Positions 15,773 through 55,365 of a stretch of DNA of 64,000 bases are shown here, piece after piece; within the stretch, counting starts at the first letter, position 1; every line of letters begins with the position of its first letter. The stretch comes from an uncultured Thermodesulfatator sp. Lineage in GTDB: Bacteria > Desulfobacterota > Dissulfuribacteria > Dissulfuribacterales > QOAL01. Where the stretch lies: contig CAYZJS010000087.1 of assembly GCA_964478865.1 (NCBI GenBank), positions 17,643-81,642 of the forward strand, read 5' to 3'. The position numbers and the translations under genes were made by a program. Under the pieces are notes generated by a model, which saw only the letters and a list, made by a program, of their open reading frames with translations, searched no databases and was not told the DNA's origin.

Positions 15773-16249
15773 CTAGAGACCCGCCCGGTTCTTGGCCATA
15801 TTGCCCTGGCCTGCGCCGTTTCCTTTCATGCCCCTCCACAGGGGAGCCCCGGTGGTCGCATCGCGCAGTGTAATGGTCTCGCCGCCCACGGTTATGGCTG
15901 CAGCAATGATCCTGGTGGTGCCATCTGAAAGTGTGACCTCGTATCCGCTCACTGTCACTTCCTCTCCCACCTCTGGGCGTGCAACGCCTGCAGCATCCCA
16001 GTATTTCTGGGGTCCGATACCGAATACGGTGACGATTTCAGAACCTGTATCAACTGACATGCCGGCCCCTTGTATTCCGATTTCACTAACAACTCCGGAA
16101 ACCTCAACTGGTACTCCGTCTGTGATATTCATCAAGGGGCCGCTACCATCCATGGCACCCTGTCCGTTTCCGGCAAAGACCGTTGGTGCTGCAACAAGGA
16201 CAAGCATGGCTGCAAGGTAAAACATCATCATAGATTTTGCGTATTTCAT
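15773..16249 (-). CDS. secreted protein with two beta-rich repeats and Gly-rich ends
   Basis: Signal peptide MKYAKSMMMFYLAAMLVLVAAPTVFA. The mature N-terminus is GNGQGAMDGSG. Repeats are VPVEVSGVVSEIG... and EEVTVSGYEVTLSDG..., followed by TITLRDATTGAPLW and the tail GMKGNGAGQGNMAKN. The RBS AGGAGG is upstream. Confidence 0.6.
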   Translation of the reverse strand: MKYAKSMMMFYLAAMLVLVAAPTVFAGNGQGAMDGSGPLMNITDGVPVEVSGVVSEIGIQGAGMSVDTGSEIVTVFGIGPQKYWDAAGVARPEVGEEVTVSGYEVTLSDGTTRIIAAAITVGGETITLRDATTGAPLWRGMKGNGAGQGNMAKNRAGL

Positions 16250-16303
16250 TAATCAATTCCTCCTGATACTCGTTTTTTTACCGGCCGGTTGACTATAACC
16301 ATT

Positions 16304-16318
16304 ACAAGTAGCATGCCA
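16304..16318 (-). promoter_or_regulatory. sigma54 -24/-12 promoter
   Basis: The minus strand reads TGGCAT-gctac-TTGT (GG-N10-GT). It lies 54 nt upstream of ATG 16249. Confidence 0.55.
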
Positions 16319-16391
16319 CCTTCTATCAAGAAGAAAAATTCAATAATAACAGCAAGTAATATGAATGGGGTAATCGGTTAAATCCGGGGAT

Positions 16392-16431
16392 GTTCGACAA
16401 ATGCCTGTGCGGGCTCGACATTGTTGTCGAA
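16392..16431 (-). promoter_or_regulatory. enhancer (UAS): 16-bp palindrome plus half-site
   Basis: TCGACATTGTTGTCGA (16415..16430) and TCGACA (16394..16399) are 15 nt apart. The same parts with the same spacing occur at 25710..25748. Confidence 0.6.
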
Positions 16432-17284: not shown

Positions 17285-19789
17285 TTATATGTCTTCTATT
17301 TCCTGAACGCCGGAGTCTGTCACCGGCAGTATTTTTGTCTCAGGGCCTTTCACCAGTGTGTTGTCACAGTATATCTCCTGGGTTCCAGGATCTTTATTTA
17401 TCCTTACCCTCGCACCGGATAGAGTCCCGGTTGGTTTCCCTCTTTCAGATCCGGCCTTTTTTTTCATTATCTTGAAGATGCCATAGAATACCCCCAGCAA
17501 AAGGGCTGCAGCAGCCCAGAACGGCCAATCATTTGCGGTAGGCTGCCTGGTAGGCGGTTTGGCAGGCGGCGCTGGAGGCTCTTTTACGATTATGTCCAGC
17601 TCCTGGGATTCGAAAATTTTTCCTTCCGGGCCTCTGGCAAGGGCCTTCACCCTGTATACACCAGGCCTCCTGTATGAATGGCTTGCAGATGAATCCGGCG
17701 ACCAGCTTTTCTCTTCTTTGAATTCTTCGTCTCCGAAGACAAAAGAAAAGAGCACGTTTGCCCTTCTCGGTGCTGTTTCAGCAGTAAAAACTACCTCCTG
17801 GCCAACCAGGGTTGAATCCTTGTCTGACTTTATCAGGACGTTCAGGTGTGGCCCCGGCCCTGGGTTTACGGTCACAAGGACCTGTTGGCTCTTTGCCAGA
17901 ATCCGACGGTTTTCCCTGACCTCTGCATGTGCAAGATATCTTCCCGGTTGGTCGTAGGAATAGTCCGTGCCGGGAGCGAGGAGGCTACATTTTGAGTTCC
18001 CGTCTCCAAAAAAGAAACAGTACTCGGCTTTCACGTCTTCGGGCTGTAAGGATGCATCGAACCTGACAGGTTCCCCCACTGCAACCGAAGACGGTTCAAC
18101 CTTTAAACCCACCCTGATGACAGGAGGTGGCTTCTTTTTCACTTCAATCCTTACAGGTTTACTTTCTGCAACCTCTTCTCCTCCCGAAAGCACCTTGACC
18201 ACCGCCTGGTAAACACCCTGCTTTTCGTATGCGTGGACCACGCCCGGACTGTTTCCGTTGTTCTTCTGGACTCCGTCTCCAAATGAAAAGATGTATTCGA
18301 GGGAAGGGCCTTGCGGCAGGGCCTTTGCCGTGAAATGAACTTTTCTGCCTGCTTCAGTCCGGTAAGGGTTTGCAGAAAGCATGACCCTAAACGTTTCACG
18401 TACCCGGATCTCGGCGGTGTTGCTTCTTACCGTTCTGTTGCCCAGTAGAGCTTCTAGTTGAACCAAGTGAACTCCAGGCCTGGTAAAGGGGTGGCGGAAC
18501 AAGCATTCTGGCCGTAAGGCTGAAACAGCCGCCCCGTCAATCAGCAACCGGTAGTTCGCTCCCGGATTTTTTGGCTGGAGCCTCCCCATGATGGTGACGG
18601 TTTCGCCCGCCTGCACCGCGTGTTTATCCGTTTTCAGTAAAAGCCGGTAATTTGCCGGCCTGACAATGACAGGAACCATGTTGCTTTCAACCATCTTGTC
18701 ATTCCCAGGCCGTGCAGAGGCCTTTGCCGTATAATGGCCAGGCACGCGGTACCTGTGGCTCGTGCTGTTTTTCTTTATCCAGCCCGATGAGCCACCGTCT
18801 CCAAAATAAAAAAAGAACCGGGCATCCCGGCTGTAAGGGGTAAGGTTTGCCCGGAGATTTACCAGGCTGTTTTCCCCTGCTTGCCGGGGATCAACCTGCA
18901 AACTGAGACGAAAGGTAACTGGCGGAGGAAGGACCTCCAGGACGGCCTTGGCCTTGAGAACCTCTTGCGCCGCGGTAATGGCAGGGGAGCGTGCCATAAG
19001 GCCCACTCCGTACCTGCCGGGAGAAAGGCTTGACGTGTCTATCCTGAAGACCGGCCCCTGTGCGTGGCTTCCTCCGGGGCCTCGCCAAGAGAAGCGGTAC
19101 TTCGTGTTGCTGACGGTCAGTCTGGCCCTGAAAACGGCCTCTTCCCCCCTTCGAACCGTCAGTGAAGGTGGTGAAATAGAGACTGCCGGGTGCGGGATGG
19201 AGGGGTGGATCTTCTGGATGAACCTGAAATCATCCGCGTTGATGTGCCCCCAACCTCCTGAAGAGTTATCTATTATGCGGATCATTCCACGTTTTCCCGA
19301 ATATGGGTCGAGGTCCCATTCCACCCTGCGCATTGTCTCGGTATTCATGCCCGATACCTGGTAGGCAGTGCTGTAGCCCACGTCATCTCTGTCGTTCAAA
19401 ATATCGAGTTCCACCCTGGTATCCGGTGAACTTCCACCCCCTACCAGAAAGCTGAGGGAGCCGGATGGTATCACAAATACGGGGGATGAAAGTTCACCCC
19501 TTGGAGCGTCGCCCTGGATGTCTCCGGGCCTCTGGCCAGGCCTGCCCTGGTATTTTTCGTAAGTCCCTATCCAGTAGCTGCCCTGGTGGTTGGAGGGCTG
19601 CCCCCTGTGCCTCCTGGCAGGGTTATCTCCAAGGGTGGGCTGAAAATGAAAGGCGCGCCCACTGGCCTGCCATCCGTCAAGAGTACCGGTTTCAAAATCC
19701 AGGGTGCAGGCTGGTGGCTGGCCCTGGACCCAAGGAGGCGCGCTCAAGATGCAGAAGGCGCATATCAACAAGAGGAGCAGCCTTTTCAA
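17285..19789 (-). CDS. single-pass membrane protein: signal peptide, lectin/glucanase-like beta-sandwich, multiple PKD repeats, TM helix, about 60-aa cytoplasmic tail
   Basis: Start moved to TTG 19789, (M)KRLLLLLICAFCILSAPPWVQG, 5 nt after GGGGGA and 10 nt after the peptidase stop. The N-terminal domain runs from CTLDFETGTLDGWQASGRAF to GGWGHINADDF. PKD units include FFYFGDGGSSGW...SHRYRVPGHY, FSFGDGVQKN...HAYEKQGVY, FFFGDGNSKC...YDQPGRY and FVFGDEEFKE...HSYRRPGVY. The TM helix is WPFWAAAALLLGVFYGIFKIM. Confidence 0.8.
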   Translation of the reverse strand: MKRLLLLLICAFCILSAPPWVQGQPPACTLDFETGTLDGWQASGRAFHFQPTLGDNPARRHRGQPSNHQGSYWIGTYEKYQGRPGQRPGDIQGDAPRGELSSPVFVIPSGSLSFLVGGGSSPDTRVELDILNDRDDVGYSTAYQVSGMNTETMRRVEWDLDPYSGKRGMIRIIDNSSGGWGHINADDFRFIQKIHPSIPHPAVSISPPSLTVRRGEEAVFRARLTVSNTKYRFSWRGPGGSHAQGPVFRIDTSSLSPGRYGVGLMARSPAITAAQEVLKAKAVLEVLPPPVTFRLSLQVDPRQAGENSLVNLRANLTPYSRDARFFFYFGDGGSSGWIKKNSTSHRYRVPGHYTAKASARPGNDKMVESNMVPVIVRPANYRLLLKTDKHAVQAGETVTIMGRLQPKNPGANYRLLIDGAAVSALRPECLFRHPFTRPGVHLVQLEALLGNRTVRSNTAEIRVRETFRVMLSANPYRTEAGRKVHFTAKALPQGPSLEYIFSFGDGVQKNNGNSPGVVHAYEKQGVYQAVVKVLSGGEEVAESKPVRIEVKKKPPPVIRVGLKVEPSSVAVGEPVRFDASLQPEDVKAEYCFFFGDGNSKCSLLAPGTDYSYDQPGRYLAHAEVRENRRILAKSQQVLVTVNPGPGPHLNVLIKSDKDSTLVGQEVVFTAETAPRRANVLFSFVFGDEEFKEEKSWSPDSSASHSYRRPGVYRVKALARGPEGKIFESQELDIIVKEPPAPPAKPPTRQPTANDWPFWAAAALLLGVFYGIFKIMKKKAGSERGKPTGTLSGARVRINKDPGTQEIYCDNTLVKGPETKILPVTDSGVQEIEDI

Positions 19790-19799
19790 TGAAATCCCC

Positions 19800-20681
19800 C
19801 TACTGTTTGAACCTCCCGGTATCCACCCATTCGTTTTTGAAAAGGGTCCACCAATCAACGGCAAGCCCCTGAAGGACGTATTCATAAGGCAGCCAGCCGT
19901 AACCCTGGTCTCCCCAGGAAGGGCCCCAGGAATTTCTAATGAGCAGCGCCCCCTTGGTTTCCTTGCCGCTTAGGGTATTCTTGATCTTTTTGGCATTGTC
20001 ATATCCCACGGCCACTACTGCATGGCCACCATCTATCTTTTCTCCCGGTGCGGGATACGGGATCATGCCGTCATCGGATGCCTGGCGTATGGAACTGAAG
20101 ACTGTAAAGCCGAACATAGATGGCAATCCATATCTCATGAGGGTCTTTATCCTGCCAAGCACTGTTTTCTTGGATGTGCCCGGGGGGTCCAGGCGGAAGT
20201 AGCGTATGGCCTGGAAATTCTGGGCGAATGCATAACAGAAGGGTGTTGGTTCCCTGTCAAAATCGGAAATATCATAGGGCCAGTATTCCTCTGGAGGGCA
20301 GCCAAAAAGCACCATTGCCCCCATGGTGCTTCTCAGGAATGCACCTGTATCCCCTGTCCAGTGCAGCAGATTTCTGGTGGCCTTGTAGAGAAACAGCCTG
20401 GAAGCATTTATATGTTTTCCAAAAGCCCTTCTTTCGTAATATTCAAGTAATCCAACCGCCGCGTTTGCCGTACATGAACCAAGGCTTCCCTGGTCCTCTA
20501 CAGGCGGGCACCACTTTCTGAGATCAGTGGAGGCCGGCACACCCTTCCTGGAAGAAGGGCCTGAAAGGCCGAGCTTTTTGGCCAGGGGTTTTATTTCTTC
20601 ATGGTCAAGGGTGTAATCCCTGAAATCCGGGTAATCTCTCAACCAGCCCAGTCCATACCTGCCGTCTATTGCAAGTGCCAT
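19800..20681 (-). CDS. papain-like (C1 family) cysteine peptidase, no signal peptide
   Basis: Start moved to MALAIDGRYGLGWLRDYPDFRD, behind GAGGAGGAAAAGG. The catalytic residues are Cys in DQGSLGSCTANA, His in DGGHAVVAVGYD and Asn in IRNSWGPSWG. Confidence 0.85.
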   Translation of the reverse strand: MALAIDGRYGLGWLRDYPDFRDYTLDHEEIKPLAKKLGLSGPSSRKGVPASTDLRKWCPPVEDQGSLGSCTANAAVGLLEYYERRAFGKHINASRLFLYKATRNLLHWTGDTGAFLRSTMGAMVLFGCPPEEYWPYDISDFDREPTPFCYAFAQNFQAIRYFRLDPPGTSKKTVLGRIKTLMRYGLPSMFGFTVFSSIRQASDDGMIPYPAPGEKIDGGHAVVAVGYDNAKKIKNTLSGKETKGALLIRNSWGPSWGDQGYGWLPYEYVLQGLAVDWWTLFKNEWVDTGRFKQ

Positions 20682-20798
20682 ATCCTTTTCCTCCTCTTGC
20701 TGGTCAGCCACTGATAACCTTGAAGTACAAGGATTATCTGGGGGCTTTCTTGTCTCCGTCACCAAAAAAATAACTAAACAAAAAATTAACTTTTTATT

Positions 20799-22101: not shown

Positions 22102-23436
22102 TCACCCCTGTCTTTCGTTTTTAATGCCGTATTTTTTCATCTTGTATCTCAAAACCCTCTCGCTTATGCCAAGGAGCTCGGCAGCCCTGGTCTGCACCCA
22201 GTCCCTGGCCTTTAATGCCTTGAGGATTTCCTCTTTTTCCACCTGCCTGAGCTTTGCCTCGAGGTTCATGTTGGCCTGGTCTTCCGCAAAGGGATCAAAG
22301 GGAATGTCCGAGGCCTTTATTACATTTCCTCGGCAGAGGGTGACCAGCCGTTGAATCATGTGCTCCAGTTCCCTCACGTTTCCGGGCCAGCTGTTTTTCA
22401 CCAGCCTGTCCATAGCCTCATGGGCAATACGAACCGGCCTTGACTGGTACTTTTCCAGGAAGAGATGAACCAGGTCCGGGATATCATCTTTCCGCTCGCG
22501 AAGCGGCGGCAGGTGGATCTCAAAGACATTCAGCCGGAAATATAGGTCCTGCCTGAACTCCCCGTTTTCCGCCATCTTCTTCAGGTTCCTGTTGGTGGCT
22601 GCAATAATCCGAACGTCCACCTCAACGGGCCTTAGCGCACCGACAGGCGTCATCTTCTTTTCCTGCAGGACCCTCAGAAGCTTGGCCTGGAGATGTTCCG
22701 GCAGCTCTCCTATCTCGTCCAGGAACAGGGTGCCTCCCTGGGCAAATTCGAAAAGCCCCCTTTTATCCCTGGAGGCCCCTGTAAAGGCCCCCTTCTTATG
22801 GCCAAAGAGTTCACTTTCAAAAAGGTTCTCGGGAATGGCGGCACAGTTGACTTCAACAAATTCCGCGTCTTTCCTGGGGCTGAGCTCGTGAACGAGCCGG
22901 GCCATGAGTTCCTTGCCGGTTCCGGTCTCCCCGTAAATCAATACTGGCCACGGAGTGGCTGCAACACGCCTTGCAGTGGAGACTGCCTCCTTCATGGCGG
23001 CGCTTTTCCCTATGAATGTCAGGGGGATCTGGCCTTCTTCAATCTCACTGCTCACCTCCTGGAGGTCTGCCTCTGTCTCTATCCTGTTCATGGCAGCCTC
23101 CACCTTTTCAAGAAGCTGCTCCAGGTCCACTGGCTTTTCCAGGAAGTCTGAAGCCCCGAGCTTCATTACCTTGACGGCGGTATCCACTGCCCCGTATGCA
23201 GTGATCATGATGACCTGGACCAGGGGATTGATCTTCTTGAGTTCCTGAAGGACCAGGTCGCCATTCATGTCAGGCATCCTGTGATCGAGCAGAACCAGAG
23301 GGATGAACTCCTTTCTGAAAAGTTCCAGTGCCTGCCTGCCACCTTCTGCCTCCAGGGCACTGAAGCCCTTTTCCTCCAGGAACTGCGCTATAATACTCCT
23401 CTGGATCGGCTCATCGTCCACGATTAGAATCTTCAT
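22102..23436 (-). CDS. NtrC/ZraR-type sigma54-dependent response regulator (REC-AAA+-Fis HTH)
   Basis: REC domain KILIVDDEP...LLDHRMPDMNG. Walker A is GETGTGKE and the GAFTGA loop reads GHKKGAFTGA. The C-terminal HTH is AAELLGISERVLRYKMKKYGI. Confidence 0.9.
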   Translation of the reverse strand: MKILIVDDEPIQRSIIAQFLEEKGFSALEAEGGRQALELFRKEFIPLVLLDHRMPDMNGDLVLQELKKINPLVQVIMITAYGAVDTAVKVMKLGASDFLEKPVDLEQLLEKVEAAMNRIETEADLQEVSSEIEEGQIPLTFIGKSAAMKEAVSTARRVAATPWPVLIYGETGTGKELMARLVHELSPRKDAEFVEVNCAAIPENLFESELFGHKKGAFTGASRDKRGLFEFAQGGTLFLDEIGELPEHLQAKLLRVLQEKKMTPVGALRPVEVDVRIIAATNRNLKKMAENGEFRQDLYFRLNVFEIHLPPLRERKDDIPDLVHLFLEKYQSRPVRIAHEAMDRLVKNSWPGNVRELEHMIQRLVTLCRGNVIKASDIPFDPFAEDQANMNLEAKLRQVEKEEILKALKARDWVQTRAAELLGISERVLRYKMKKYGIKNERQG

Positions 23437-25052
23437 TTGGTCCCGTCCCGCCTCCTTCCTGCCTTTGCTGGAAAGCCTGTTTCCACCACAAAACTGCCAG
23501 ATTCAACCCTGGCCCTGATAAATCCGTTGTGAGCCGCCATTATCCGCTGGCATATTGAAAGACCAAGGCCCGTGCCCCTGGTCTTAAGGGTGAAGTACGG
23601 CTCGAAGATCTGATCAAGCTCCTCTCTGGAGGGAAGATTGCCACCATTGGCTATCCTTGCGACCTGGAAACCGTTTTCCACTGCCAGTTCAATGATTATG
23701 GCCTCACCTTCCGGCTGTGCGTCCAGGGCATTTGAGAGGAGGTTTTCAAAGAGCTGGAGCGCAAGGTCGGGATCTGCCTCAACCAGGACCTCCCTTATGA
23801 TCCTGAAGTCGATTCCTATACCCTGGAATTTTTCCCTGCCCTCGATATTCGCAAGGGCCTCCCTCAGGATATGCGAGATAAAAACCGGCCGGATTTCGGG
23901 CTTGAGTGGCCGTGCGTAGGAAAGCAATCCTGAAATTATCCTTTCCGTCCTTGCAAGTTCGCCTTGTATGAGCCCCAGAAGCTTCCTGTGCATTTCGGGC
24001 AAGCCCTTCTTGTCCATGAGCAATCTCTGTATACCCATGGACACGCTGTTTAGGGGATTTCTTATCTCGTGGGCAATGGTTGCAGCCGAGCGGCCAAGGC
24101 TTGCCTCGTGCCTTTCCCGGAAAAGCTGTTCCTCGTATTCCCTCATCTTCGAGACATAAGCGGCCTGGTGCCTGTAAAGCAGCCAGGTGACTATTCCTCC
24201 AGTGGCCACCAATATCAGGCTGAAAAAGAAGAGGAGCATCCAGATATTACGTTGTTTCGCCCTGAGGGAGCCTGCATCCATTCCCAGGATCAGGACTTGT
24301 TCTCCCAGGTCAAACTGCACCCGGACTACAGGTCCGGAGTCGCTATCGTAGTAGGCGACATCCTGTTTTTTATCGCATTTTTCCGGGCATCCCCAGCCAT
24401 TTGCCTCTACGCAAGCCGATTCCCTGTCTGTCAGCCTTACGAATTTTACCCCGGCAAGATGGGATATCTCCCGAAGGGTATTTTCAAGGCCTATCCTCTC
24501 CTGGATGGCCATGACCTGGGAGGCATCGATTCCGGCAATAACGCATACCTGATCCCCGGGGCCGAAGGGACTTACGAAAATAAACATCCTCTTTTCCCGG
24601 TCCTCCCTCAAGGCTGGCCCGGCATTGCAAAGAGATACGGCAGGCCGGGGCAGCCAGCCGAATTTGCTCTCCACCAGGTTTCCGGAGCCTTTCTCCATTA
24701 TGCTTATTCCGCTCAGTCCGGCCTCCTGGGCAAATGCAGAAAGCTCCTCCCTGGTAAAGGGCTCTACGTGCTGCAGGTACCTGATGAATCTTATCTGGCT
24801 TTTTAAGAAGGAAGAGATGATCTGCCTGCTGGTCTTTCGGGCCTGGATGGCATTTTGTGCATTAAGCCTGATTATTTCTGCTGCAAGCCTGGCATGGTCC
24901 CTGGCCTCGTCCAGGAAGATGCGGTCTAGATACCTTGTCTGCCATACCGCAACGGTCACTGCCACGGCAAATATCACGAGAAAGGCTACAAAATTGGCCT
25001 TCCACAGACTCGGAAAGCCAGACTTGGGAGAACCGCCACGCTCCTCGCTCAT
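23433..25052 (-). CDS. sensor histidine kinase with about 230-aa periplasmic domain
   Basis: Two TM helices (FVAFLVIFAVAVTVAV and IWMLLFFFSLILVATGGIVTWLL). The H-box is AATIAHEIRNPLNSV and the G-box is TRGTGLGLSICQRIM. The stop overlaps the regulator start as ATGA. Confidence 0.85.
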   Translation of the reverse strand: MSEERGGSPKSGFPSLWKANFVAFLVIFAVAVTVAVWQTRYLDRIFLDEARDHARLAAEIIRLNAQNAIQARKTSRQIISSFLKSQIRFIRYLQHVEPFTREELSAFAQEAGLSGISIMEKGSGNLVESKFGWLPRPAVSLCNAGPALREDREKRMFIFVSPFGPGDQVCVIAGIDASQVMAIQERIGLENTLREISHLAGVKFVRLTDRESACVEANGWGCPEKCDKKQDVAYYDSDSGPVVRVQFDLGEQVLILGMDAGSLRAKQRNIWMLLFFFSLILVATGGIVTWLLYRHQAAYVSKMREYEEQLFRERHEASLGRSAATIAHEIRNPLNSVSMGIQRLLMDKKGLPEMHRKLLGLIQGELARTERIISGLLSYARPLKPEIRPVFISHILREALANIEGREKFQGIGIDFRIIREVLVEADPDLALQLFENLLSNALDAQPEGEAIIIELAVENGFQVARIANGGNLPSREELDQIFEPYFTLKTRGTGLGLSICQRIMAAHNGFIRARVESGSFVVETGFPAKAGRRRDGTK

Positions 25053-25060
25053 CTCAGCCG

Positions 25061-25471
25061 CTACCTTCCATGTCCCCGTCCATGGCCGTGTCTTCCTGCT
25101 CTCCCCCGGAAGCCGGCGGCCTTCCTAAGCCGTTTCTTTATGCCGGTCATGTCGTGGCCGTGACCCGGACACACACGCTCCAACTCAAGAGAACCGGCCT
25201 TGCCGTGTTTTATCCACATTCTGATATTGGAACCCTTTTGCACCCCCGCCGCCTCAAAACCGGAATCATAGGCGACTGTCATGTCCTTGCCGCTTTCCAT
25301 GTCGCGGATGACCATGGTCTTGTCTGCAGGATCTATACGGACTACCTGGCCGGCAAGAAGTTCAGATGCGTATGCGCCTGAAAAGAGGGCCAGCCAGATG
25401 AGCAAGGCTCCAGCAAGGAAAGCGCCCGCGTGCCACGGGTGTTTTCCAGTTGCAAAGCCCGGAAGGCGCAT
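25061..25471 (-). CDS. small secreted protein with His/Gly/Arg-rich C-terminal tail
   Basis: MRLPGFATGKHPWHAGAFLAGALLIWLALFSGAYA looks like a signal peptide. The tail is PGHGHD...GRAGRHGHGRGHGR. It is the first gene of the kinase/regulator operon. The start is uncertain (25513 is also possible) and neither candidate has a strong RBS. Confidence 0.5.
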   Translation of the reverse strand: MRLPGFATGKHPWHAGAFLAGALLIWLALFSGAYASELLAGQVVRIDPADKTMVIRDMESGKDMTVAYDSGFEAAGVQKGSNIRMWIKHGKAGSLELERVCPGHGHDMTGIKKRLRKAAGFRGRAGRHGHGRGHGR

Positions 25472-25621
25472 CTGAAATCTAATCTCATTCCTGTAAAGAG
25501 ATGTTTTACACATTGCTTTTAATATAGGTAACGTCCTTCCCGGTTCATTTTTAAACCTATGGATGCAGACTGGACAGGGTCAGCCGTGGCAGACACCTTG
25601 AGTTGTCCTGAATTTCCATCC

Positions 25622-25636
25622 GCAAAAACGATACCA
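25622..25636 (-). promoter_or_regulatory. sigma54 -24/-12 promoter
   Basis: The minus strand reads TGGTAT-cgttt-TTGC (GG-N10-GC). Confidence 0.5.
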
Positions 25637-25708
25637 TGTTGAAACCGCCGCATAAACCACGAATATTTTAGCATTATTCGGGTTTTCTGCCGCCAGGGCC
25701 TGTTGAAT

Positions 25709-25748
25709 TTCGACAATATTGTCGAGAAGCGGAAATCATTTGTCGAAC
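25709..25748. promoter_or_regulatory. enhancer (UAS): 16-bp perfect palindrome plus half-site
   Basis: TCGACAATATTGTCGA (25710..25725) and TGTCGA (25741..25746) lie within TTTGTCGAAC. They sit between divergent sigma54 promoters. Confidence 0.6.
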
Positions 25749-25821
25749 TGCCTGAAGATGTCCGCCGTTGCTTCCGACGTTAACTTGATGATTTTAAATA
25801 AAATTTTCCAAGAAAAAAACG

Positions 25822-25836
25822 TGGCACGATCCTTGA
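25822..25836 (+). promoter_or_regulatory. sigma54 -24/-12 promoter
   Basis: TGGCAC-gatcc-TTGA lies 46 nt before ATG 25883. The RBS AGGAGG is at 25868..25873. Confidence 0.55.
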
Positions 25837-25882
25837 GTAGTTAAAGTCCTGAAATACAAAAAACCCCAGGAGGTGATACAAA

Positions 25883-26215
25883 ATGAAATCGATAACACTT
25901 AGAACCGTGCTGGCAGCCGGGGCGCTATTTATAGCCATTCCAGCCCTTGCCGCAGATTACAGCAGTTATTCTCTCCAGGAGCTTTCCCAAATGAGAGGCA
26001 CAATGATGGACAAATCCCAGGAAGAAAGAGAGGCCTTCAGAAACGCCTGGATGGAAAAGATGAGAAATGCCACGCCGGAAGAAAGATCCCTTTATTCCGG
26101 AGCACAGGGAAAGGGCCACAAGTATGGCCAGATGCACTCAAATGGCCAGTCAGGCTTCGGCGGCGCGGGAAACTGTGACGGGTCGGGACACGGCCACAGA
26201 CACGGCCGGAAATAA
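25883..26215 (+). CDS. small periplasmic helical protein with Gly/His-rich tail (ZraP/Spy-like in composition)
   Basis: Signal peptide MKSITLRTVLAAGALFIAIPALA. The core is helical and charged (QEEREAFRNAWMEKMRNATPEER). The tail is GFGGAGNCDGSGHGHRHGRK. Confidence 0.6.
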   Translation: MKSITLRTVLAAGALFIAIPALAADYSSYSLQELSQMRGTMMDKSQEEREAFRNAWMEKMRNATPEERSLYSGAQGKGHKYGQMHSNGQSGFGGAGNCDGSGHGHRHGRK

Positions 26216-26268: not shown

Positions 26269-27066
26269 ATGAAAACCATCAAGACCATTCTTACAGTAGC
26301 CTGCATAATTGCCGTGACAGCAGGTGTTGCCATGGCCCAGGGCAAGGGCCGTGGCAGTAACGGCGCAGGTCAGTTCATGGCCGGACCAGGAACTATTGTA
26401 TCCCAGCTTCCATACGAGGAGTTGAGCCAGCAGGAAAAGGACGGCCTCCTCAAGATGAGGGAAGAGGAAAAGCTCGCCAGGGATGTATACATGTACCTGT
26501 ACGATTTGTGGCAGAACCCGGTGTTCTCAAACATTTCCAAGTCTGAACAGCGCCACATGGATGCAGTGGGCGCTATCCTGAACAAATACGGCCTGGAAGA
26601 CCCGGTGGACGGTATGGGGCCTGGTCAGTTCAATTCACCCGAGATGCAGGAGCTCTATAGCAGCCTGACTGCAAAAGGCACCTCTAGCATACAGGATGCG
26701 TTTCTTGTGGGAGCAACCATAGAGGATCTCGACATCAAGGACCTGGAAGAGCTTATGGAAACAGCGGACAACGAAGACGTGCTTACCGTCTATCAGAACC
26801 TTGTAAAAGGATCAAGAAACCATCTCAGGGCTTTCGGTTCCCGGCTTGCCAGTCTGGGCATTACCTACAAAGCCCAGTTTCTTACCCAGGAGGAAGTTGA
26901 CGCCATAATCAGCAGCCCTTGGGAAAGAGGCCGGGTTGACAAGGATGGAAATCCCGTCTCCGGCATGGGCAAGGGCCGCAATAAGGGGCACAGGTACGGT
27001 TCCGGAGCCGGTCCCAACTTCGTGGATGCTGATGGAGACGGAATCTGCGACAACTGGAACAAATAA
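26269..27066 (+). CDS. secreted DUF2202 (ferritin-like) protein with Gly-rich ends and a C-terminal D-x-D-G-D-G-x-C-D motif
   Basis: It has a signal peptide. MREEEKLARDVYMYLYDLWQNPVFSNISKSEQRHMDAV matches my memory of DUF2202. The C-terminus is GKGRNKGHRYGSGAGPNFVDADGDGICDNWNK. Confidence 0.7.
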   Translation: MKTIKTILTVACIIAVTAGVAMAQGKGRGSNGAGQFMAGPGTIVSQLPYEELSQQEKDGLLKMREEEKLARDVYMYLYDLWQNPVFSNISKSEQRHMDAVGAILNKYGLEDPVDGMGPGQFNSPEMQELYSSLTAKGTSSIQDAFLVGATIEDLDIKDLEELMETADNEDVLTVYQNLVKGSRNHLRAFGSRLASLGITYKAQFLTQEEVDAIISSPWERGRVDKDGNPVSGMGKGRNKGHRYGSGAGPNFVDADGDGICDNWNK

Positions 27067-27078
27067 AAGATAAATACG

Positions 27079-27103
27079 AAAGGCCCCTTTTTATGGGGCC
27101 TTT
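27079..27103 (+). terminator. hairpin after the DUF2202 gene
   Basis: AAAGGCCCC-tttttat-GGGGCCTTT lies 13 nt after the stop. Confidence 0.5.
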
Positions 27104-27142
27104 CAGTTTAATAACAACTGAAAATTGAAAAAGGAGGATTCC

Positions 27143-27700
27143 ATGAACAAAGACTGTGCAATATTCGTAATGGCACTGGCCATAATCGTCATGCTGGGAT
27201 ATCTTGCACGTTCCGAATGGATTCCGCCGGTTGAAAACAGCCCCCGGGAAACGGTACATTCCATGCCAAGGCATAGCACGGCCAAAAGGGTAACTCACCA
27301 CACACCCAGGGTGAAGAGGCATCAGACATCACGACAAACATATCAAGTCCATCACGTTAGGCCCGCAACCCGCCCAGATATCAGACACGCGGTTTACAAT
27401 ACCTATCAGCCCCGCCGCTCCTATGCCCAGGATCTGGCCGAGTGCAAAATGCTGGCGCAGCGGGCGGCTGGATATGTCCCGGAAGAAACCATTAAAGGTG
27501 GCCTCCTAGGTGGTGCCATCGGTGCAGCAGCAGGAGCAGCCATCGGTGCCGTTTTGGGGCATCCTGGCAAGGGGGCGGCAATTGGAGCAGCAGCAGGAGG
27601 CATAGGCGGAGGTGCCTACAGGGGCCTTTCCTCTGACCAGAAGTACAGGCGAGCCTATTCAGCCTGCATGAGAAACCGGGGATGGAACGTACTGAACTAA
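27143..27700 (+). CDS. glycine-zipper membrane/outer-membrane protein
   Basis: ATG 27143 follows AAGGAGG. A basic His/Arg/Pro-rich linker precedes GGLLGGAIGAAAGAAIGAVLGHPGKGAAIGAAAGGIGGGA, which is a glycine zipper. Confidence 0.65.
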   Translation: MNKDCAIFVMALAIIVMLGYLARSEWIPPVENSPRETVHSMPRHSTAKRVTHHTPRVKRHQTSRQTYQVHHVRPATRPDIRHAVYNTYQPRRSYAQDLAECKMLAQRAAGYVPEETIKGGLLGGAIGAAAGAAIGAVLGHPGKGAAIGAAAGGIGGGAYRGLSSDQKYRRAYSACMRNRGWNVLN

Positions 27701-30468
27701 ACAGTCATGCTGTAATCCGACAGAGGGGCCTTGAGGCAATTTCTAACGGCCCTTAGCAGCTTGTCCGGGCTGAATGGTTTTTTTATCAACAGGACTGGCT
27801 TGAGGCCCTGGCGAATTTCCGAGAGGTCTGCCCTGGAACTGTAGCCGCTGCTGAAAAGTATTCTGGCAGCCGGGTCTGTCTCCAGTATCTTTTTTGAGGC
27901 CTCTATTCCATCCATCTCGGGCATTACCACATCCATCAGGACCAGGCTTACTTCGGGAAACAGGGACTTATATATTGAAACCGCCTCCCTTCCGTTCTTG
28001 GCCATTATGGTCCTGTATCCATGTTGACGCAGAATTTCACTAGCGAGATCCCTTATAAGTTCCTCGTCATCAACTATCAAAATGGTCCCGGTTCCTGACA
28101 AGTTATCATCAGATTTAATATCTCTCATCGAGCCCTTACCCGGTTCGCCAATCGGGAAATAGAGCTCAAAAGAACTCCCGCTGCCAGGAATGGTCTTGAC
28201 GTCAATGGTTCCGCCCAGGCTCTCCAGGATACCGTAAACCATGGCAAGGCCAAGGCCAGAACCCTTGCCCACCTCCTTGGTGGTGAAAAACGGGTCGAAA
28301 ATCCTGTCTATGATTTCCAGGGAAATTCCTGTTCCCGTATCGTTAACCTCCAGTTTAACAAATTTTTCTTCCCTGGAACGATTCCTCAAAGATGCGGGTA
28401 GCGTTTCTTTGGGGCACAGGGAAGTAGAAATCCGGATCTTTCCGCCATGAGGCATGGCATCCCTGGCATTAATACACAGATTGAGGATGATTTGCTGAAG
28501 CTGGGACGGATCACATTTGATTTCCGAAACATTCCCGGCCAGATCGAATTCCAGCCCGATGTTCTTTGGGAACGAACTCTTCAAAAGGGTCAAGGATTCC
28601 TCGATAACATCGTTGATATTGCAAACCGCGTCTTCCTGAGGAGTGGTTTCCCTGCTGAAAACCAGCATCTTCTTAACCAATGCTGCAGCGCGAAGGCTGG
28701 AGTTTTCAATAATCTCTACAAAACGCGCCAGGTCTGGCCTGTCTGCCACCTTTTCCTTTAAAAGAGAGGTAAACCCAAGAATGCCTGTAAGTATGTTGTT
28801 GAAATCGTGAGCAATGCCTCCTGCCATGGTGCCTATGGATTCCATCTTTTGGGCCTGTAGGAGTTTGCGCTCCAATTCCTTCTGGCTTGAAAGATCAGTG
28901 ACCACGGCCAGGCAACCCAGCATGCTGCCATTATTGGGATCCTGTATGGGGACACTGCTCATTAGAACGGGGATGTCCTTGTCATCGGTGGCATGAAAAA
29001 GGATTTCCTCCTTTGCCTGAAGGCCGGAATAGTTGGCCATGAGGAGGGAAAGAAGCCTCCTTTTTTCATCCCTGTCAGGTACGAAATCGTAGATCCTCGA
29101 ACCTGTCAGGTCGTCTTTGCCAACGAGCCTGTTCATCTTCATGTTGGAGAAGATAACAGTCCCTTCCTCGTTCATTATCATGATGCCTTCATTTATGTTT
29201 TCAACAATCTGCCTGTGCTTCTTTTCAGAGGTTTCGATTTTTTTGTACAGGTTGGCATTTTCTATTGCCATGGCAATGTGATTGGCAAAACTGGTGAGAA
29301 AATCCCTGTCGATCTCCTTTATGAAGTTCTTGTCAGATGCATTGTCTCCCACCATGATTCCCACCACCTGCCCTCTTACGGCCATGGGTACAATAACAAA
29401 GGCCTTTGGCTGAAATGCCACCAGCAGGGGATTTTTCCTGTTGAGGGACAGTGAACCCGCATCTTCCACCAGGATGGGTTTCTGTGCCTGGGCAGCCCTT
29501 GCTATGATATTGTTTTTCTTGTCAATGGAGATGCGATAGCACTTGAGCCTCTTAAGCGTATCCTCGTCTACACCGGCTGCATGAATAAGGCTTAGCTTTC
29601 GGCTTTCCTGATCCACCAGGAAGACACCGGCCCTTTCGAGCCTTGCAATATCCATCATCCGCTTGAGCACCCTGTCGAGCAACTCGGTAAGATCAAGGGT
29701 GGACAGTATGGCCGTGCTTGTTTCATGCAGTGCTGAAAGCTGTTCAATCTTGCCCTGCAGATCCTTGTTCAGGGCATAGATCTTTTCATATTTTTCCTGG
29801 AGGAGTTTCTTGTCCTTTTCCAGCTCACGGACAGATTCCCTGGCTATCTTCCAGGGTGCAACGATCTGAAAGACCTTGCTCCTGAATCTGGACTGGGGTT
29901 TCCATGAGATATGGTACTCGCAATAGGGTGCGCCCTTGAAAAAACACTTGGGCTCTTCAATACTGCAGGCGCCCCCACCCCATATTGAAGGCATGGCGGA
30001 ATAGATCCCCTTGTTGAAAAGGCAGAAGTCACGGTTCAGTTCGATGTCCTCGTTCCAGTGCAGCCTGACCACGGCATCCTTCTTCTCAAGGCTTACCAGG
30101 GAGATAGTTTTGGTCCTGTTGAACTTGTCATTGATTCTTTGGGCATAGCCCAAAATATTCTTGGGACTCCCCAAGGCATAAACCAGTATCTTCTGGACAT
30201 AGCCGAACCTCTTTTTCATTACGGAATGGTATCCTATGTTGTAGGCAATATTTTCATCCCCTAGGATCTTTTTTGCGTTTCGATAAAGTATCATCATAAC
30301 AGTGGATGATACCCAGTTATTGGGATCCGAGAGAAATGACTCCTTGTCGTCGATACCATACAATTCTTTATCCAGGCCGCTAAACAGCATACCCGTCTTG
30401 TCAGGCGCCAGTTCCTTGACATACTGGATAATCGCAAGACTATTTAAACAGCTGTTATGCTTTTCCAT
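27697..30468 (-). CDS. hybrid sensor kinase: N-terminal ligand-binding domain (V4R-like?), coiled coil, GAF, PAS, HisKA, HATPase, REC
   Basis: The H-box is [14 protein letters not shown] and the G-box is [13 protein letters not shown]. The REC domain is [12 protein letters not shown]...[11 protein letters not shown]. The N-terminal domain ends in [22 protein letters not shown]. Confidence 0.85.
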
Positions 30469-54426: not shown

Positions 54427-55365
54427 CTACCCAAGTTTCTGAACATCCGCCAGGATCAGGGTGAAAAGTGCCATCCTGATGGCCACGCCGTTTGTGACTT
54501 GTTCAAGTATTACCGAATTAACCGCATCTGCTATTTCCGGAGTCATCTCCACGCCCCTGTTGATGGGGCCGGGATGCATTATTATGGCATCCTTTTTGAG
54601 ATGCGGCACCACTGCCCGGGAAAGTCCGAACTGCCGGGCATATTCCCTTTCCGACGGAAACGGGGAAAGCTGTCCGAGTCGCTCCTTCTGGATCCGAAGG
54701 GCCATTACAACATCCGCATCCCTTACGGCATCCCTGAGATCCAGGCAGACCCTGGCACCCAGGATGTCCGGTGCCGGAGGCATCATGGTAGCCGGCCCGC
54801 AGACCGTGACCCTGGCACCCATCTTGGTAAAGGCCAGGATGTCCGAATGGGCCACCCTGCTATGGGCGATATCCCCTATTATCGTGATATTTAGGCCCTC
54901 AAGCCTGCCGAAACGTTCCCGGACTGTGAGAAGGTCCAGAAGGGCCTGGGAAGGATGCTCGTTTGTCCCGTCTCCGGCATTGATGACCGAGGAACGGACG
55001 TATCTTGAAATAAGATGCGGGGCACCGGACATGGAGTGACGCATCACTATGATGTCCGGTTTCATGGCCTCGATGTTTCTGGCAGTATCTATGAGGGTTT
55101 CACCCTTTACCACGCTGCTGGTGCTGGCGGAAATGCCCACGGTGTCGGCACTGAGCCTCTTTGCCGCAAGCTCGAAGGAAAGCTTTGTCCTGGTGCTCGG
55201 CTCAAAAAATAGATTTACAATGGTCTTGCCCCTGAGAGGGGGCACCTTTTTGATGGGCCGCTCCAGGATTTCCTTCATGGAAACCGCCGTGTCCAGTATG
55301 AAGGAAATCTCATCCCGGTCCAGGTATGAAATTCCCAGTATGTGACGTGCCCTTAGCTCTCCCAT
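54427..55365 (-). CDS. pyrB: aspartate carbamoyltransferase catalytic subunit
   Basis: The FFEPSTRTKLSFE and HPGPINRG motifs are present. Confidence 0.9.
   Translation of the reverse strand: MGELRARHILGISYLDRDEISFILDTAVSMKEILERPIKKVPPLRGKTIVNLFFEPSTRTKLSFELAAKRLSADTVGISASTSSVVKGETLIDTARNIEAMKPDIIVMRHSMSGAPHLISRYVRSSVINAGDGTNEHPSQALLDLLTVRERFGRLEGLNITIIGDIAHSRVAHSDILAFTKMGARVTVCGPATMMPPAPDILGARVCLDLRDAVRDADVVMALRIQKERLGQLSPFPSEREYARQFGLSRAVVPHLKKDAIIMHPGPINRGVEMTPEIADAVNSVILEQVTNGVAIRMALFTLILADVQKLG

What the first reader, a model, noticed from the sequence alone, without database searches (positions are those of the whole stretch)
25622..25836. Divergent sigma54 promoters sharing one perfect 16-bp palindromic enhancer
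The gap separates two operons. On the minus strand run a His/Gly-rich secreted protein, a sensor kinase and an NtrC-type regulator. On the plus strand run a ZraP-like protein and a DUF2202 protein. In this gap I read, in order: minus-strand TGGTAT-N5-TTGC (25636..25622); the perfect palindrome TCGACAATATTGTCGA (25710..25725); a further half-site inside TTTGTCGAAC (25739..25748); an AT-rich tract; and plus-strand TGGCAC-N5-TTGA (25822..25836), 46 nt before ATG 25883. The adjacent regulator carries the GAFTGA loop required for sigma54 activation. This is the architecture known for E. coli zraP/zraSR, where divergent sigma54 promoters flank regulator-binding inverted repeats. Here the cargo genes are different and uncharacterised.
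Basis: partly seen in the sequence, partly recalled or inferred. Interest (0 to 1): 0.7.

Follow-up and report, generated by a model that had tools for sequence, protein, structure and literature searches.

The report
Shared enhancer between divergent sigma-54 promoters
A two-component regulator in an uncultured sulfate-reducer-like bacterium very probably switches on its own operon and two sets of secreted, uncharacterised proteins from one conserved DNA enhancer; the design is familiar but the binding site and target genes are new.

Summary
Comparative evidence supports the interpretation. Nine orthologous loci (regulator identity 63-86%, plus Desulfonema magnum) each keep exactly one TCGACA-N4-TGTCGA palindrome and a TTGTCGA half-site 13-14 nt further on. 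They also keep sigma-54-type -24/-12 boxes, while the flanking DNA is unalignable. The window holds a second, unnoticed copy of the whole module at 16304-16430 (minus strand), with identical spacing, upstream of a secreted OB-fold protein. A DNA-only metagenome scan for the composite operator returned 80 loci. Of 83 sites, 29 carry a sigma-54 box at 80-125 nt (about 0.2 expected), and the offsets are helically phased. The loci are enriched for the same kinase, regulator, OB-fold protein and DUF2202. Regulators next to the operator share an invariant recognition helix (GISERVLRYKM). The layout matches E. coli zraP/zraSR and the Desulfovibrio orp operons, but the system is not a ZraPSR ortholog. 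The 110-aa protein is not detectably ZraP-like. The cargo-side -12 elements lack the consensus C. No experiment exists; the signal and the cargo function are unknown. Verdict: real, well supported, a new member of a known kind, moderate interest.

The parts
22102..23436 (-). NtrC-type response regulator / enhancer-binding protein. It has REC, an AAA+ sigma-54 interaction domain with GAFTGA, and a Fis-type HTH with the recognition helix LGISERVLRYKM.
   Evidence: Pfam Response_reg 8e-31, Sigma54_activat 5e-74, HTH_8 6e-15. GAFTGA at 22791. HTH signature shared with all operator-linked regulators.
23433..25052 (-). Sensor histidine kinase with two hydrophobic segments (about residues 15-35 and 273-293) enclosing a periplasmic domain of about 235 aa that matches no known family.
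   Evidence: HisKA 4e-12, HATPase_c 3e-15. Only the transmitter half aligns to ZraS/AtoS models. Hydropathy.
25061..25513 (-). Small secreted protein, first gene of the kinase operon. The start is probably ATG 25471. It carries the conserved motif D-x-TG-[IM]-K-[KR]-RLR-[KR]-A and a basic His/Gly/Arg tail. The D. magnum homolog gives weak OB/TOBE-like hits.
   Evidence: ORF list. Ortholog comparison. No Pfam hit. Weak TOBE_3 hit for the D. magnum homolog.
25622..25636 (-). Sigma-54-type promoter of the small-protein/kinase/regulator operon: TGGTAT-N5-TTGC. Predicted start near 25610.
   Evidence: Sequence. A TGGTAY-N5-TTG[C/T/A] box is conserved in all 9 syntenic loci including the window, at 80-100 nt from the palindrome. 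It is the only box present in L062/L063.
25710..25725 (.). Primary enhancer site: the perfect 16-bp palindrome TCGACAATATTGTCGA, presumed to bind a regulator dimer.
   Evidence: 2 vs 0.01 expected. One copy per ortholog locus, always in this position. The A/T-rich centre is conserved although it was unconstrained in the scan.
25731..25746 (+). Degenerate second enhancer site. Only the right half, TTGTCGA (25740..25746), is conserved. Its centre lies 21 bp from the palindrome centre.
   Evidence: The half-site is conserved in all 11 aligned regions. In L126 the equivalent position holds a full second palindrome 21 bp start-to-start.
25781..25793 (-). IHF-like element (TAACTTGATGATT) inside the A/T-rich tract 25780..25819. 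It has one mismatch to the relaxed pattern YAANNNNYTGWTW.
   Evidence: The pattern matches at the same position in L058-L061 and about 30 nt before the box in L001. The window copy has 1 mismatch. This part is inferred only.
25822..25836 (+). Sigma-54-type promoter of the cargo operon: TGGCAC-N5-TTGA, with a non-consensus A at -12. Predicted start near 25848.
   Evidence: Sequence. TGGCAC-N5-TTGA lies at 112-113 nt from the palindrome start in the window and L058-L061. L065 has TGGCAT-N5-GTGA at 113 nt and L064 TGGCAC-N5-CTGT at 100 nt.
25883..26215 (+). 110-aa secreted protein with a short helical core and a Gly/His/Cys-rich tail. It belongs to a small family of unknown function and is not detectably ZraP-like.
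   Evidence: 10 relatives only. No Pfam or NCBIfam hit. AF2 pLDDT 60.6. No fold match. BLASTP vs E. coli ZraP finds nothing.
26269..27066 (+). Secreted DUF2202 (ferritin-like) protein, second gene of the cargo operon.
   Evidence: Pfam DUF2202 8.6e-58. Synteny in L058-L061, L064, L065 and L141.
27077..27105 (.). G+C-rich hairpin just after the DUF2202 stop codon; a possible operon end.
27125..27700 (+). Glycine-zipper (OmpA/YMGG-type) protein. Its position next to DUF2202 is conserved. Whether it belongs to the transcription unit is uncertain.
   Evidence: Pfam Gly-zipper_OmpA 8e-9. Synteny in L058-L060, L065 and L141.
16394..16430 (-). Second enhancer copy in the window: palindrome TCGACAACAATGTCGA (16430..16415), then 14 nt, then TTGTCGA (16400..16394).
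16304..16318 (-). Sigma-54-type promoter TGGCAT-N5-TTGT, 112 nt from the palindrome start, the same offset as at 25822. Predicted start near 16292.
15773..16249 (-). 158-aa secreted OB-fold protein (p158), the most widely conserved cargo of the regulon.
   Evidence: Homologs lie downstream of operator plus box in D. magnum and in 14 metagenome loci. 430 family representatives and no Pfam model. AF2 pLDDT 84; OB-fold matches.

Best explanation
The 25622-25836 gap is the control region of a sigma-54-dependent two-component regulon. The membrane kinase (23433-25052) senses an unknown periplasmic cue and phosphorylates the NtrC-type regulator (22102-23436). Regulator dimers bind the palindrome TCGACAATATTGTCGA and a degenerate second site 21 bp away, on the same DNA face, and assemble into the active AAA+ oligomer. 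The A/T-rich DNA on either side bends, possibly with IHF help. The oligomer then contacts sigma-54 RNA polymerase waiting at two helically phased promoters. One, TGGTAT-N5-TTGC, drives the small protein, kinase and regulator, giving positive autoregulation. The other, TGGCAC-N5-TTGA, drives the 110-aa protein and DUF2202. A second module with identical spacing at 16304-16430 puts a secreted OB-fold protein under the same control. Shown here: the sequence elements, their conservation, spacing and phasing, co-occurrence with the regulator family, and the domain content of the proteins. Inferred: binding, sigma-54 dependence, looping, autoregulation, and any role in envelope or metal stress.
For: Motifs at the stated coordinates. 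Exact palindrome 2 vs 0.01 expected. Two window copies have identical offsets (palindrome 21, half-site 52, TGG 133) but dissimilar spacers. Each of 9 related loci has one palindrome in the equivalent place, with the half-site and -24/-12 boxes conserved amid unalignable flanks. L062/L063 lack the divergent operon yet keep the operator and the kinase-side box. In D. magnum the operator and box head an operon that runs from a p158 homolog into the orthologous kinase. In the metagenome scan, 29 of 83 operator sites have a box at 80-125 nt, against about 0.2 expected by my calculation. The loci contain kinase (21), regulator (19), p158 (14) and DUF2202 (4) homologs. Offsets cluster at 69/79-81/89-92/100-101/110-113 nt; Rayleigh p is about 1e-15 at a period of 10.5-11 bp. 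The unconstrained palindrome centre is A/T-rich. Operator-linked regulators share W[VI]QT[RK]AA..LGISERVLRYKM, and regulators without the operator differ. The regulator has REC, Sigma54_activat with GAFTGA, and HTH_8. No competing sigma-70 signal (4 weak matches vs 2.0+-1.4) and no Rfam family.
Against: There is no experimental evidence of any kind. The plus-strand and 16.3-kb promoters have A or T instead of the highly conserved C at -12. The kinase-side -24 element is TGGTAT rather than TGGCAC, and in the window it leaves a long leader of 97-139 nt. rpoN and IHF genes are not in the window, so their presence in this genome is assumed. The strict IHF consensus is not matched in the window. 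About half of the metagenome operator hits have no recognisable box or homolog nearby; they may be chance matches or truncated contigs. The phasing statistic is inflated by relatedness among sequences.
Confidence: 0.82

Rival explanations
1. Only the cargo promoters (25822+, 16318-) are regulator- and sigma-54-dependent. The kinase operon would be transcribed from an unrecognised constitutive promoter, and the TGGTAT-N5-TTGC box would be non-functional or bind polymerase unproductively.
For: The -24 hexamer deviates from TGGCAC. The leader is long in the window (97-139 nt). The half-site is always on the cargo side. Many two-component operons are constitutively expressed (general knowledge). 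Intragenic or inactive sigma-54 sites are common in E. coli (title and abstract of PMC4591121).
Against: The box is conserved as TGGTAY-N5-TTG[C/T/A] in all 9 syntenic loci including the window, at helically phased distances. In L062/L063 the operator is retained although this is the only adjacent promoter. Similar left-side boxes precede kinase genes in metagenome loci L113, L125, L139 and L141. No good sigma-70 match in the gap.
Confidence: 0.1
2. The palindrome is the operator of a different DNA-binding protein, for example a repressor. Its association with the NtrC-type regulator would then be only positional.
For: Binding has not been tested. TCGACA resembles a -35 hexamer, and the sigma-70 scan picks it up weakly.
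Against: The operator co-occurs with this regulator family across loci found by DNA alone. It co-varies with an invariant recognition helix. It sits at phased, enhancer-typical distances from -24/-12 boxes. No other regulator gene is conserved in the neighbourhood.
Confidence: 0.05
3. The motifs are chance matches in an A/T-rich intergenic gap, and the gap holds ordinary sigma-70 promoters.
For: The sigma-54-like pattern alone occurs 3 times vs 1.21 expected in the window.
Against: Palindrome 2 vs 0.01 expected. Conservation in 9 loci. Identical spacing in a second copy. 29 of 83 vs about 0.2 boxes in the metagenome scan.
Confidence: 0.02

Closest known systems
E. coli / Salmonella ZraPSR (zraP and zraSR divergent sigma-54 promoters controlled by ZraR)
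   Same: A two-component kinase plus an NtrC-type regulator. Divergent sigma-54 promoters, one autoregulatory and one for a small periplasmic protein, flank two regulator sites (PMC4987338; E. coli gap read).
   Different: The operator is GAGT-N7-ACTC x2 with centres 31 bp apart, against TCGACA-N4-TGTCGA plus a half-site at 21 bp. The -24 boxes are 140 bp apart in E. coli and 186 bp here. The regulator and kinase fall far below the ZraR/ZraS model cut-offs (361 vs 760 bits and 139 vs 479 bits). There is no ZraP homolog. The cargo is DUF2202, a 110-aa orphan and an OB-fold protein. Zinc responsiveness is unknown.
Desulfovibrio vulgaris Hildenborough orp1/orp2 operons with OrpR (DVU2106) and IHF
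   Same: The closest named relatives of this window (Thermodesulfatator MAG, Desulfonema magnum) belong to the same phylum. Divergent sigma-54 operons are co-activated from palindromic EBP sites, with IHF sites lying between enhancer and promoters (PMC3897727).
   Different: OrpR is a one-component EBP expressed from a sigma-70 promoter with negative feedback. Here the EBP is a response regulator that appears positively autoregulated from a sigma-54 promoter. The operator and the cargo are different.
NorR-norVW and NtrC-glnA enhancers (multiple phased sites nucleating an AAA+ oligomer)
   Same: More than one regulator site on one DNA face upstream of a -24/-12 promoter (PMC2831303 abstract; general knowledge for NtrC).
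   Different: Here there is one perfect site plus one degenerate site rather than three (NorR) or two strong (NtrC) sites, and it serves two directions.
Aquifex aeolicus NtrC4/NtrC1 (closest solved structures)
   Same: Full-length REC-AAA+-HTH architecture. These are the best PDB matches: 4l4u at 1e-102 and 1ny5 at 7e-95.
   Different: This is a structural relationship only. The targets and the operator are unrelated.

Membership tests
Sigma-54 (-24/-12) promoter class | GG and GC doublets exactly 10 nt apart within TGGCAC-N5-TTGC(A/T) | tested here: met
   Kinase-side box TGGTATCGTTTTTGC (25636..25622) has GG-N10-GC.
Sigma-54 (-24/-12) promoter class | The same GG-N10-GC spacing for the cargo-side boxes | tested here: inconclusive
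   TGGCACGATCCTTGA (25822) and TGGCATGCTACTTGT (16318) have a perfect or near-perfect -24 and TTG at -15 to -13, but A or T at -12. The same deviation recurs across orthologs and metagenome sites (TTGC/TTGT/TTGA in roughly equal numbers).
Sigma-54 (-24/-12) promoter class | Transcription start about 12 nt downstream of the -12 element, dependent on rpoN and on an EBP | not testable with these tools
   Needs 5'-RACE or dRNA-seq and mutants. rpoN is not in the window.
Bacterial enhancer-binding protein, NtrC-type response regulator | REC domain, AAA+ Sigma54_activat domain with the GAFTGA loop, and a C-terminal Fis-type HTH | tested here: met
   Pfam hits. GAFTGA. PDB matches to NtrC4/NtrC1.
Upstream activating sequence (enhancer) of an EBP | Conserved dyad-symmetric sites about 70-150 bp upstream of the -24/-12 box, phased with the promoter, co-occurring with the cognate EBP | tested here: met
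Upstream activating sequence (enhancer) of an EBP | Direct binding by the regulator | not testable with these tools
   Needs EMSA, footprinting or DAP-seq.
ZraPSR system | Regulator and kinase reach the ZraR/ZraS equivalog models | tested here: not met
   ZraR 360.7 bits vs cut-off 760. ZraS 138.5 vs 479, with the transmitter half only aligned.
ZraPSR system | Divergent gene encodes a ZraP (Spy/CpxP-type) periplasmic protein | tested here: not met
   No Pfam or NCBIfam hit. No ZraP/Spy/CpxP hit in the profile-vs-PDB search. Foldseek best E = 2.3. BLASTP vs E. coli ZraP finds no alignment at E<=100.
ZraPSR system | Divergent sigma-54 promoters flanking the regulator sites | tested here: met
IHF-assisted sigma-54 promoter | IHF consensus WATCARNNNNTTR between enhancer and promoter | tested here: inconclusive
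   The strict consensus is matched only in L058. A relaxed form is conserved at one position in L058-L061 and L001. The window has 1 mismatch.

The most novel reading that the evidence does not exclude
The operator TCGACA-AWAT-TGTCGA and its regulator family (recognition helix GISERVLRYKM) may define a widespread, undescribed envelope regulon. Its conserved cargo would act together in handling a metal or mineral in the periplasm. That cargo is a secreted OB-fold protein, DUF2202 ferritin-like proteins, DUF4405 membrane proteins, Gly/His/Cys-rich secreted proteins and a putative outer-membrane barrel. DUF2202 and DUF4405 are the same two orphan families noted in ferrosome (fez) gene clusters. 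The consistently non-consensus -12 base of the cargo promoters may tune basal or induced output.
Probability: 0.2. Interest if true: 0.65.

Novelty: new member of a known kind. Interest (0 to 1): 0.4.

Why it matters
Desulfobacteria-type genomes encode dozens of sigma-54 activators whose targets are mostly unknown (PMC12316311). Here one such regulator family is tied to a precise operator, a strict helical phasing rule and a conserved set of target genes. This gives a ready-made handle (reporter fusions, DAP-seq) for finding the signal and the function of several orphan periplasmic protein families: the OB-fold p158 family, DUF2202, DUF4405 and the Gly-rich proteins. The natural series of promoters with C, T or A at -12 could also be used to study how the -12 element sets sigma-54 promoter stringency. 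The design itself (divergent sigma-54 promoters sharing an enhancer) is textbook, so the value lies in annotation and in opening a regulon, not in a new principle.

Tried and rejected
(1) 'ZraP-like' for the 110-aa protein was rejected. There is no Pfam or NCBIfam hit even at permissive thresholds. The profile-vs-PDB search gave only a faint HP0721/DUF1104 hit at E=0.5. The AF2 model has only about 47 confident residues and no fold match. BLASTP vs E. coli ZraP finds nothing.
(2) ZraSR orthology was rejected on NCBIfam cut-offs.
(3) Sigma-70 promoters as an alternative: only four 9/12 matches against 2.0+-1.4 expected, two of them being the operator itself.
(4) A known RNA element in the gap: no Rfam family anywhere in the 64 kb.
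(5) The genome-contig scan with the kinase found only one true ortholog (D. magnum); the other 56 loci were generic transmitter-domain hits.
(6) Naming the organism through cluster members failed; no names or accessions were returned.
(7) The strict IHF consensus is not matched in the window.
(8) The repeat finder with the chosen settings did not report the short palindromes, so they were read directly instead.
(9) The afdb50 fold library was unavailable.
(10) The third sigma-54-like match, at 54585, has no operator upstream and was treated as chance without checking its coding context.
(11) A literature search for the operator string with sigma-54 terms found only unrelated occurrences.

Full report
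1. Observation.

Reading 25500-25960 confirms every element at the stated coordinates:
- TGGTATCGTTTTTGC on the minus strand (25636..25622)
- the perfect palindrome TCGACAATATTGTCGA (25710..25725)
- TTTGTCGAAC (25739..25748)
- an A/T-rich tract
- TGGCACGATCCTTGA on the plus strand (25822..25836), 46 nt before ATG 25883

The flanking genes are as described. On the minus strand run a small secreted His/Gly-rich protein, a HisKA/HATPase kinase, and a REC + Sigma54_activat + HTH_8 regulator carrying GAFTGA. On the plus strand run a 110-aa secreted protein and a DUF2202 protein.

Taken alone, the sigma-54-like pattern is not unusual in the window: 3 matches vs 1.21 expected. The exact palindrome is unusual: 2 matches vs 0.01 expected, and no shuffle reached 2.

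2. A second copy in the window.

The other exact palindrome lies at 16415..16430. Read on the minus strand, that region repeats the whole module: TCGACAACAATGTCGA, then 14 nt, then TTGTCGA, then an A/T-rich tract, then TGGCATGCTACTTGT (16318..16304). This is followed by the gene for a 158-aa secreted protein (15773..16249).

Aligned on the palindrome, the half-site and the TGG of the -24 box fall at exactly the same offsets (31 and 112 nt) as at 25710, while the spacers are dissimilar. This is motif conservation, not a duplication.

Of 14 relaxed -24/-12 boxes in the 64 kb, only these three have operator half-sites within 160 nt upstream.

3. Orthologous loci.

The regulator has a graded series of relatives. 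Contexts were fetched for eight of them, at 86-63% identity (L058-L065). A kinase ortholog was also found in Desulfonema magnum (L001).

Each of the eight regulator-anchored loci (L058-L065) has exactly one TCGACA-N4-TGTCGA (at most 1 mismatch), always just upstream of the small-protein/kinase/regulator operon. In D. magnum the single copy heads a longer cargo operon that runs into the kinase.

In an alignment anchored on the palindrome, the flanks cannot be aligned, but several elements are retained:
- The half-site TTGTCGA, 13-14 nt beyond the palindrome, in all 11 regions.
- A TGGTAY-N5-TTG[C/T/A] box on the kinase side, at 80-100 nt.
- A -24/-12 box on the side where a divergent DUF2202 operon exists. 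It is TGGCAC-N5-TTGA at 112-113 nt in the window and L058-L061, TGGCAT-N5-GTGA at 113 nt in L065, and TGGCAC-N5-CTGT at 100 nt in L064.

L062 and L063 have no divergent operon, yet they keep the operator and the kinase-side box. This argues for conserved autoregulation.

In D. magnum the operator and a TGGCAC-N5-TTGA box head a single operon. It encodes a Gly-rich secreted protein, a p158 homolog, a putative outer-membrane protein, the small protein and the kinase. This ties the window's 16.4-kb module to the same two-component system.

4. DNA-only test.

A metagenome scan was run for TCGACA-N4-TGTCGA-N13/14-TTGTCGA.
- Of 83 sites, 29 have a TGG[CT]A[CT]-N5-NTGN box 80-125 nt downstream on the half-site side. 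By my calculation about 0.2 are expected. Nine have a box on the other side.
- tblastn with the window's proteins finds kinase homologs in 21 loci, regulator in 19, p158 in 14, the D. magnum 340-aa protein in 8 and DUF2202 in 4.
- The typical order is operator, box, Gly-rich protein, p158, a protein of about 370 aa, a small protein, kinase, regulator.
- Other cargo includes a DUF4405 membrane protein (Pfam 1.3e-16).

Across 55 non-identical sites, the operator-to-box offsets cluster at 69, 79-81, 89-92, 100-101 and 110-113 nt. The Rayleigh p-value is about 1e-15 at a period of 10.5-11 bp, though relatedness among sequences inflates this.

The four central bases of the palindrome were unconstrained in the scan, yet they are A/T-rich (A 41/46, W, A 35/46, T 37/46).

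L126 carries tandem full palindromes 21 bp apart. The window's half-site is therefore best read as the surviving half of a second site two helical turns from the first.

5. Regulator-operator link.

Regulators encoded next to an operator share the helix-turn-helix W[VI]QT[RK]AA..LGISERVLRYKM. This holds down to about 46% identity over the C-terminal 160 residues. NtrC-family regulators in loci without the operator have different helices.

Of the 120 best homologs, 98 carry exactly GISERVLRYKM. Of the other 22, 21 differ from it by one residue, and one (P0034) is a fragment that lacks the C-terminal region.

6. Rivals.

The gap holds only weak sigma-70 matches (4 vs 2.0+-1.4), two of which are the operator itself. 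No Rfam family occurs in the window.

The main residual uncertainty is whether the kinase-side box is active. Its conservation, its phasing, and its presence as the sole partner of the operator in L062/L063 argue that it is.

7. Comparison with known systems.

The literature states that ZraR controls divergent sigma-54 promoters for zraSR and zraP (PMC4987338). I read the E. coli K-12 gap directly. It has TGGCAC-N6-TGCA on the minus strand and TGGCAT-N6-TGCT on the plus strand, 140 bp apart, around two GAGT-N7-ACTC repeats whose centres are 31 bp apart.

The layout is the same here, but the operator, the spacing (186 bp between the -24 boxes) and the genes differ:
- The regulator scores 361 bits against the ZraR model (cut-off 760).
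- The kinase scores 139 bits against ZraS (cut-off 479), with only the transmitter aligned.
- The best solved relatives of the regulator are Aquifex NtrC4 and NtrC1.
- The 110-aa protein has only 10 relatives and no family assignment.
- It shows no ZraP/Spy/CpxP similarity by profile, by fold or by BLASTP.

The D. vulgaris orp operons (PMC3897727) are a characterised analogue from the phylum of this window's closest named relatives, with palindromic EBP sites and IHF sites between divergent sigma-54 promoters. A relaxed IHF-like element is conserved about 41 nt upstream of the cargo-side box in L058-L061. It has one mismatch in the window. I treat IHF involvement as inferred.

8. Cargo and function.
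- p158 is a confident OB-fold (pLDDT 84; matches to Stn1/Ten1, LysRS and RPA OB domains). Its family has 430 representatives and no Pfam model.
- The D. magnum homolog of the small kinase-linked protein has weak TOBE/OB-like hits. The family has a conserved D-x-TG-[IM]-K-[KR]-RLR-[KR]-A motif.
- DUF2202 is ferritin-like. Together with DUF4405, it is mentioned only in the ferrosome preprint.
- All cargo proteins are secreted, and many end in Gly/His/Cys-rich tails.

This suggests an envelope or metal-related response, but that is a low-confidence inference.

9. Verdict.

The finding extends to a second promoter in the window and to a widespread regulon. It is a new member of a known kind of regulatory architecture. 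No transcription or binding data exist.

Noticed in passing
window 25822-25836, 16304-16318; loci L058-L145: Cargo-side sigma-54 boxes of this regulon end in TTGC, TTGT or TTGA in roughly equal numbers. The normally well-conserved C at -12 is not conserved here, whereas TGGCA[CT] at -24 is nearly invariant.
   Followed up: partly
L126 200-300: A metagenome contig carries three or four full operator palindromes in a cluster, two of them 21 bp start-to-start. This shows the ancestral or full form of the two-site enhancer.
   Followed up: partly
L089 3919 and 5016: One contig has two operator and promoter modules in tandem. The first precedes a double-domain p158 protein. The second precedes a Gly-rich protein, DUF2202, an outer-membrane-like protein, the small protein and the kinase.
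   Followed up: partly
L001 5971-6450 (Desulfonema magnum): A long array of roughly 60-nt tandem repeats sits inside the operon, between the p158 homolog and the 340-aa gene. No regulator gene follows the kinase in this genome.
   Followed up: no
L067, L077, L094, L100, L089 (first ORF after the promoter); L001 4835-5211: These loci encode secreted Gly-rich proteins of about 105-160 aa with repeated motifs such as RPxDGTGxG, and several end in GDCDGTG..KGKGRG. They have no Pfam family. The window's 110-aa protein ends in a similar GNCDGSGHGH tail.
   Followed up: partly
window 25061-25513 and orthologs in L059-L065: The small kinase-linked protein family has a strongly conserved D-x-TG-[IM]-K-[KR]-RLR-[KR]-A motif followed by an Arg/His/Gly tail. 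The annotated ORF in the window probably starts at the internal ATG 25471.
   Followed up: partly
window 27697-30468 (-): A 923-aa hybrid kinase (GAF, PAS, HisKA, HATPase, REC) converges on the glycine-zipper gene. The same neighbour is conserved in L058-L060.
   Followed up: no
window 17285-19885 (-) and 19800-20765 (-): An 866-aa secreted protein with multiple PKD domains lies next to a papain-family (Peptidase_C1) protein, between the two regulon modules.
   Followed up: partly
window 54585-54599 (+): A third sigma-54-like match (TGGCATCCTTTTTGA) has no operator half-site upstream. It was treated as chance; whether it lies inside a coding region was not checked.
   Followed up: partly
window 1-64000: No Rfam family at gathering threshold anywhere in the 64 kb (a tRNA-specific scan was not run). 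The genome-contig scan, made with six exact peptide words from the kinase, recovered only Desulfonema magnum (35% identity). The closest named relatives of individual proteins are MAGs labelled Thermodesulfatator sp.
   Followed up: partly
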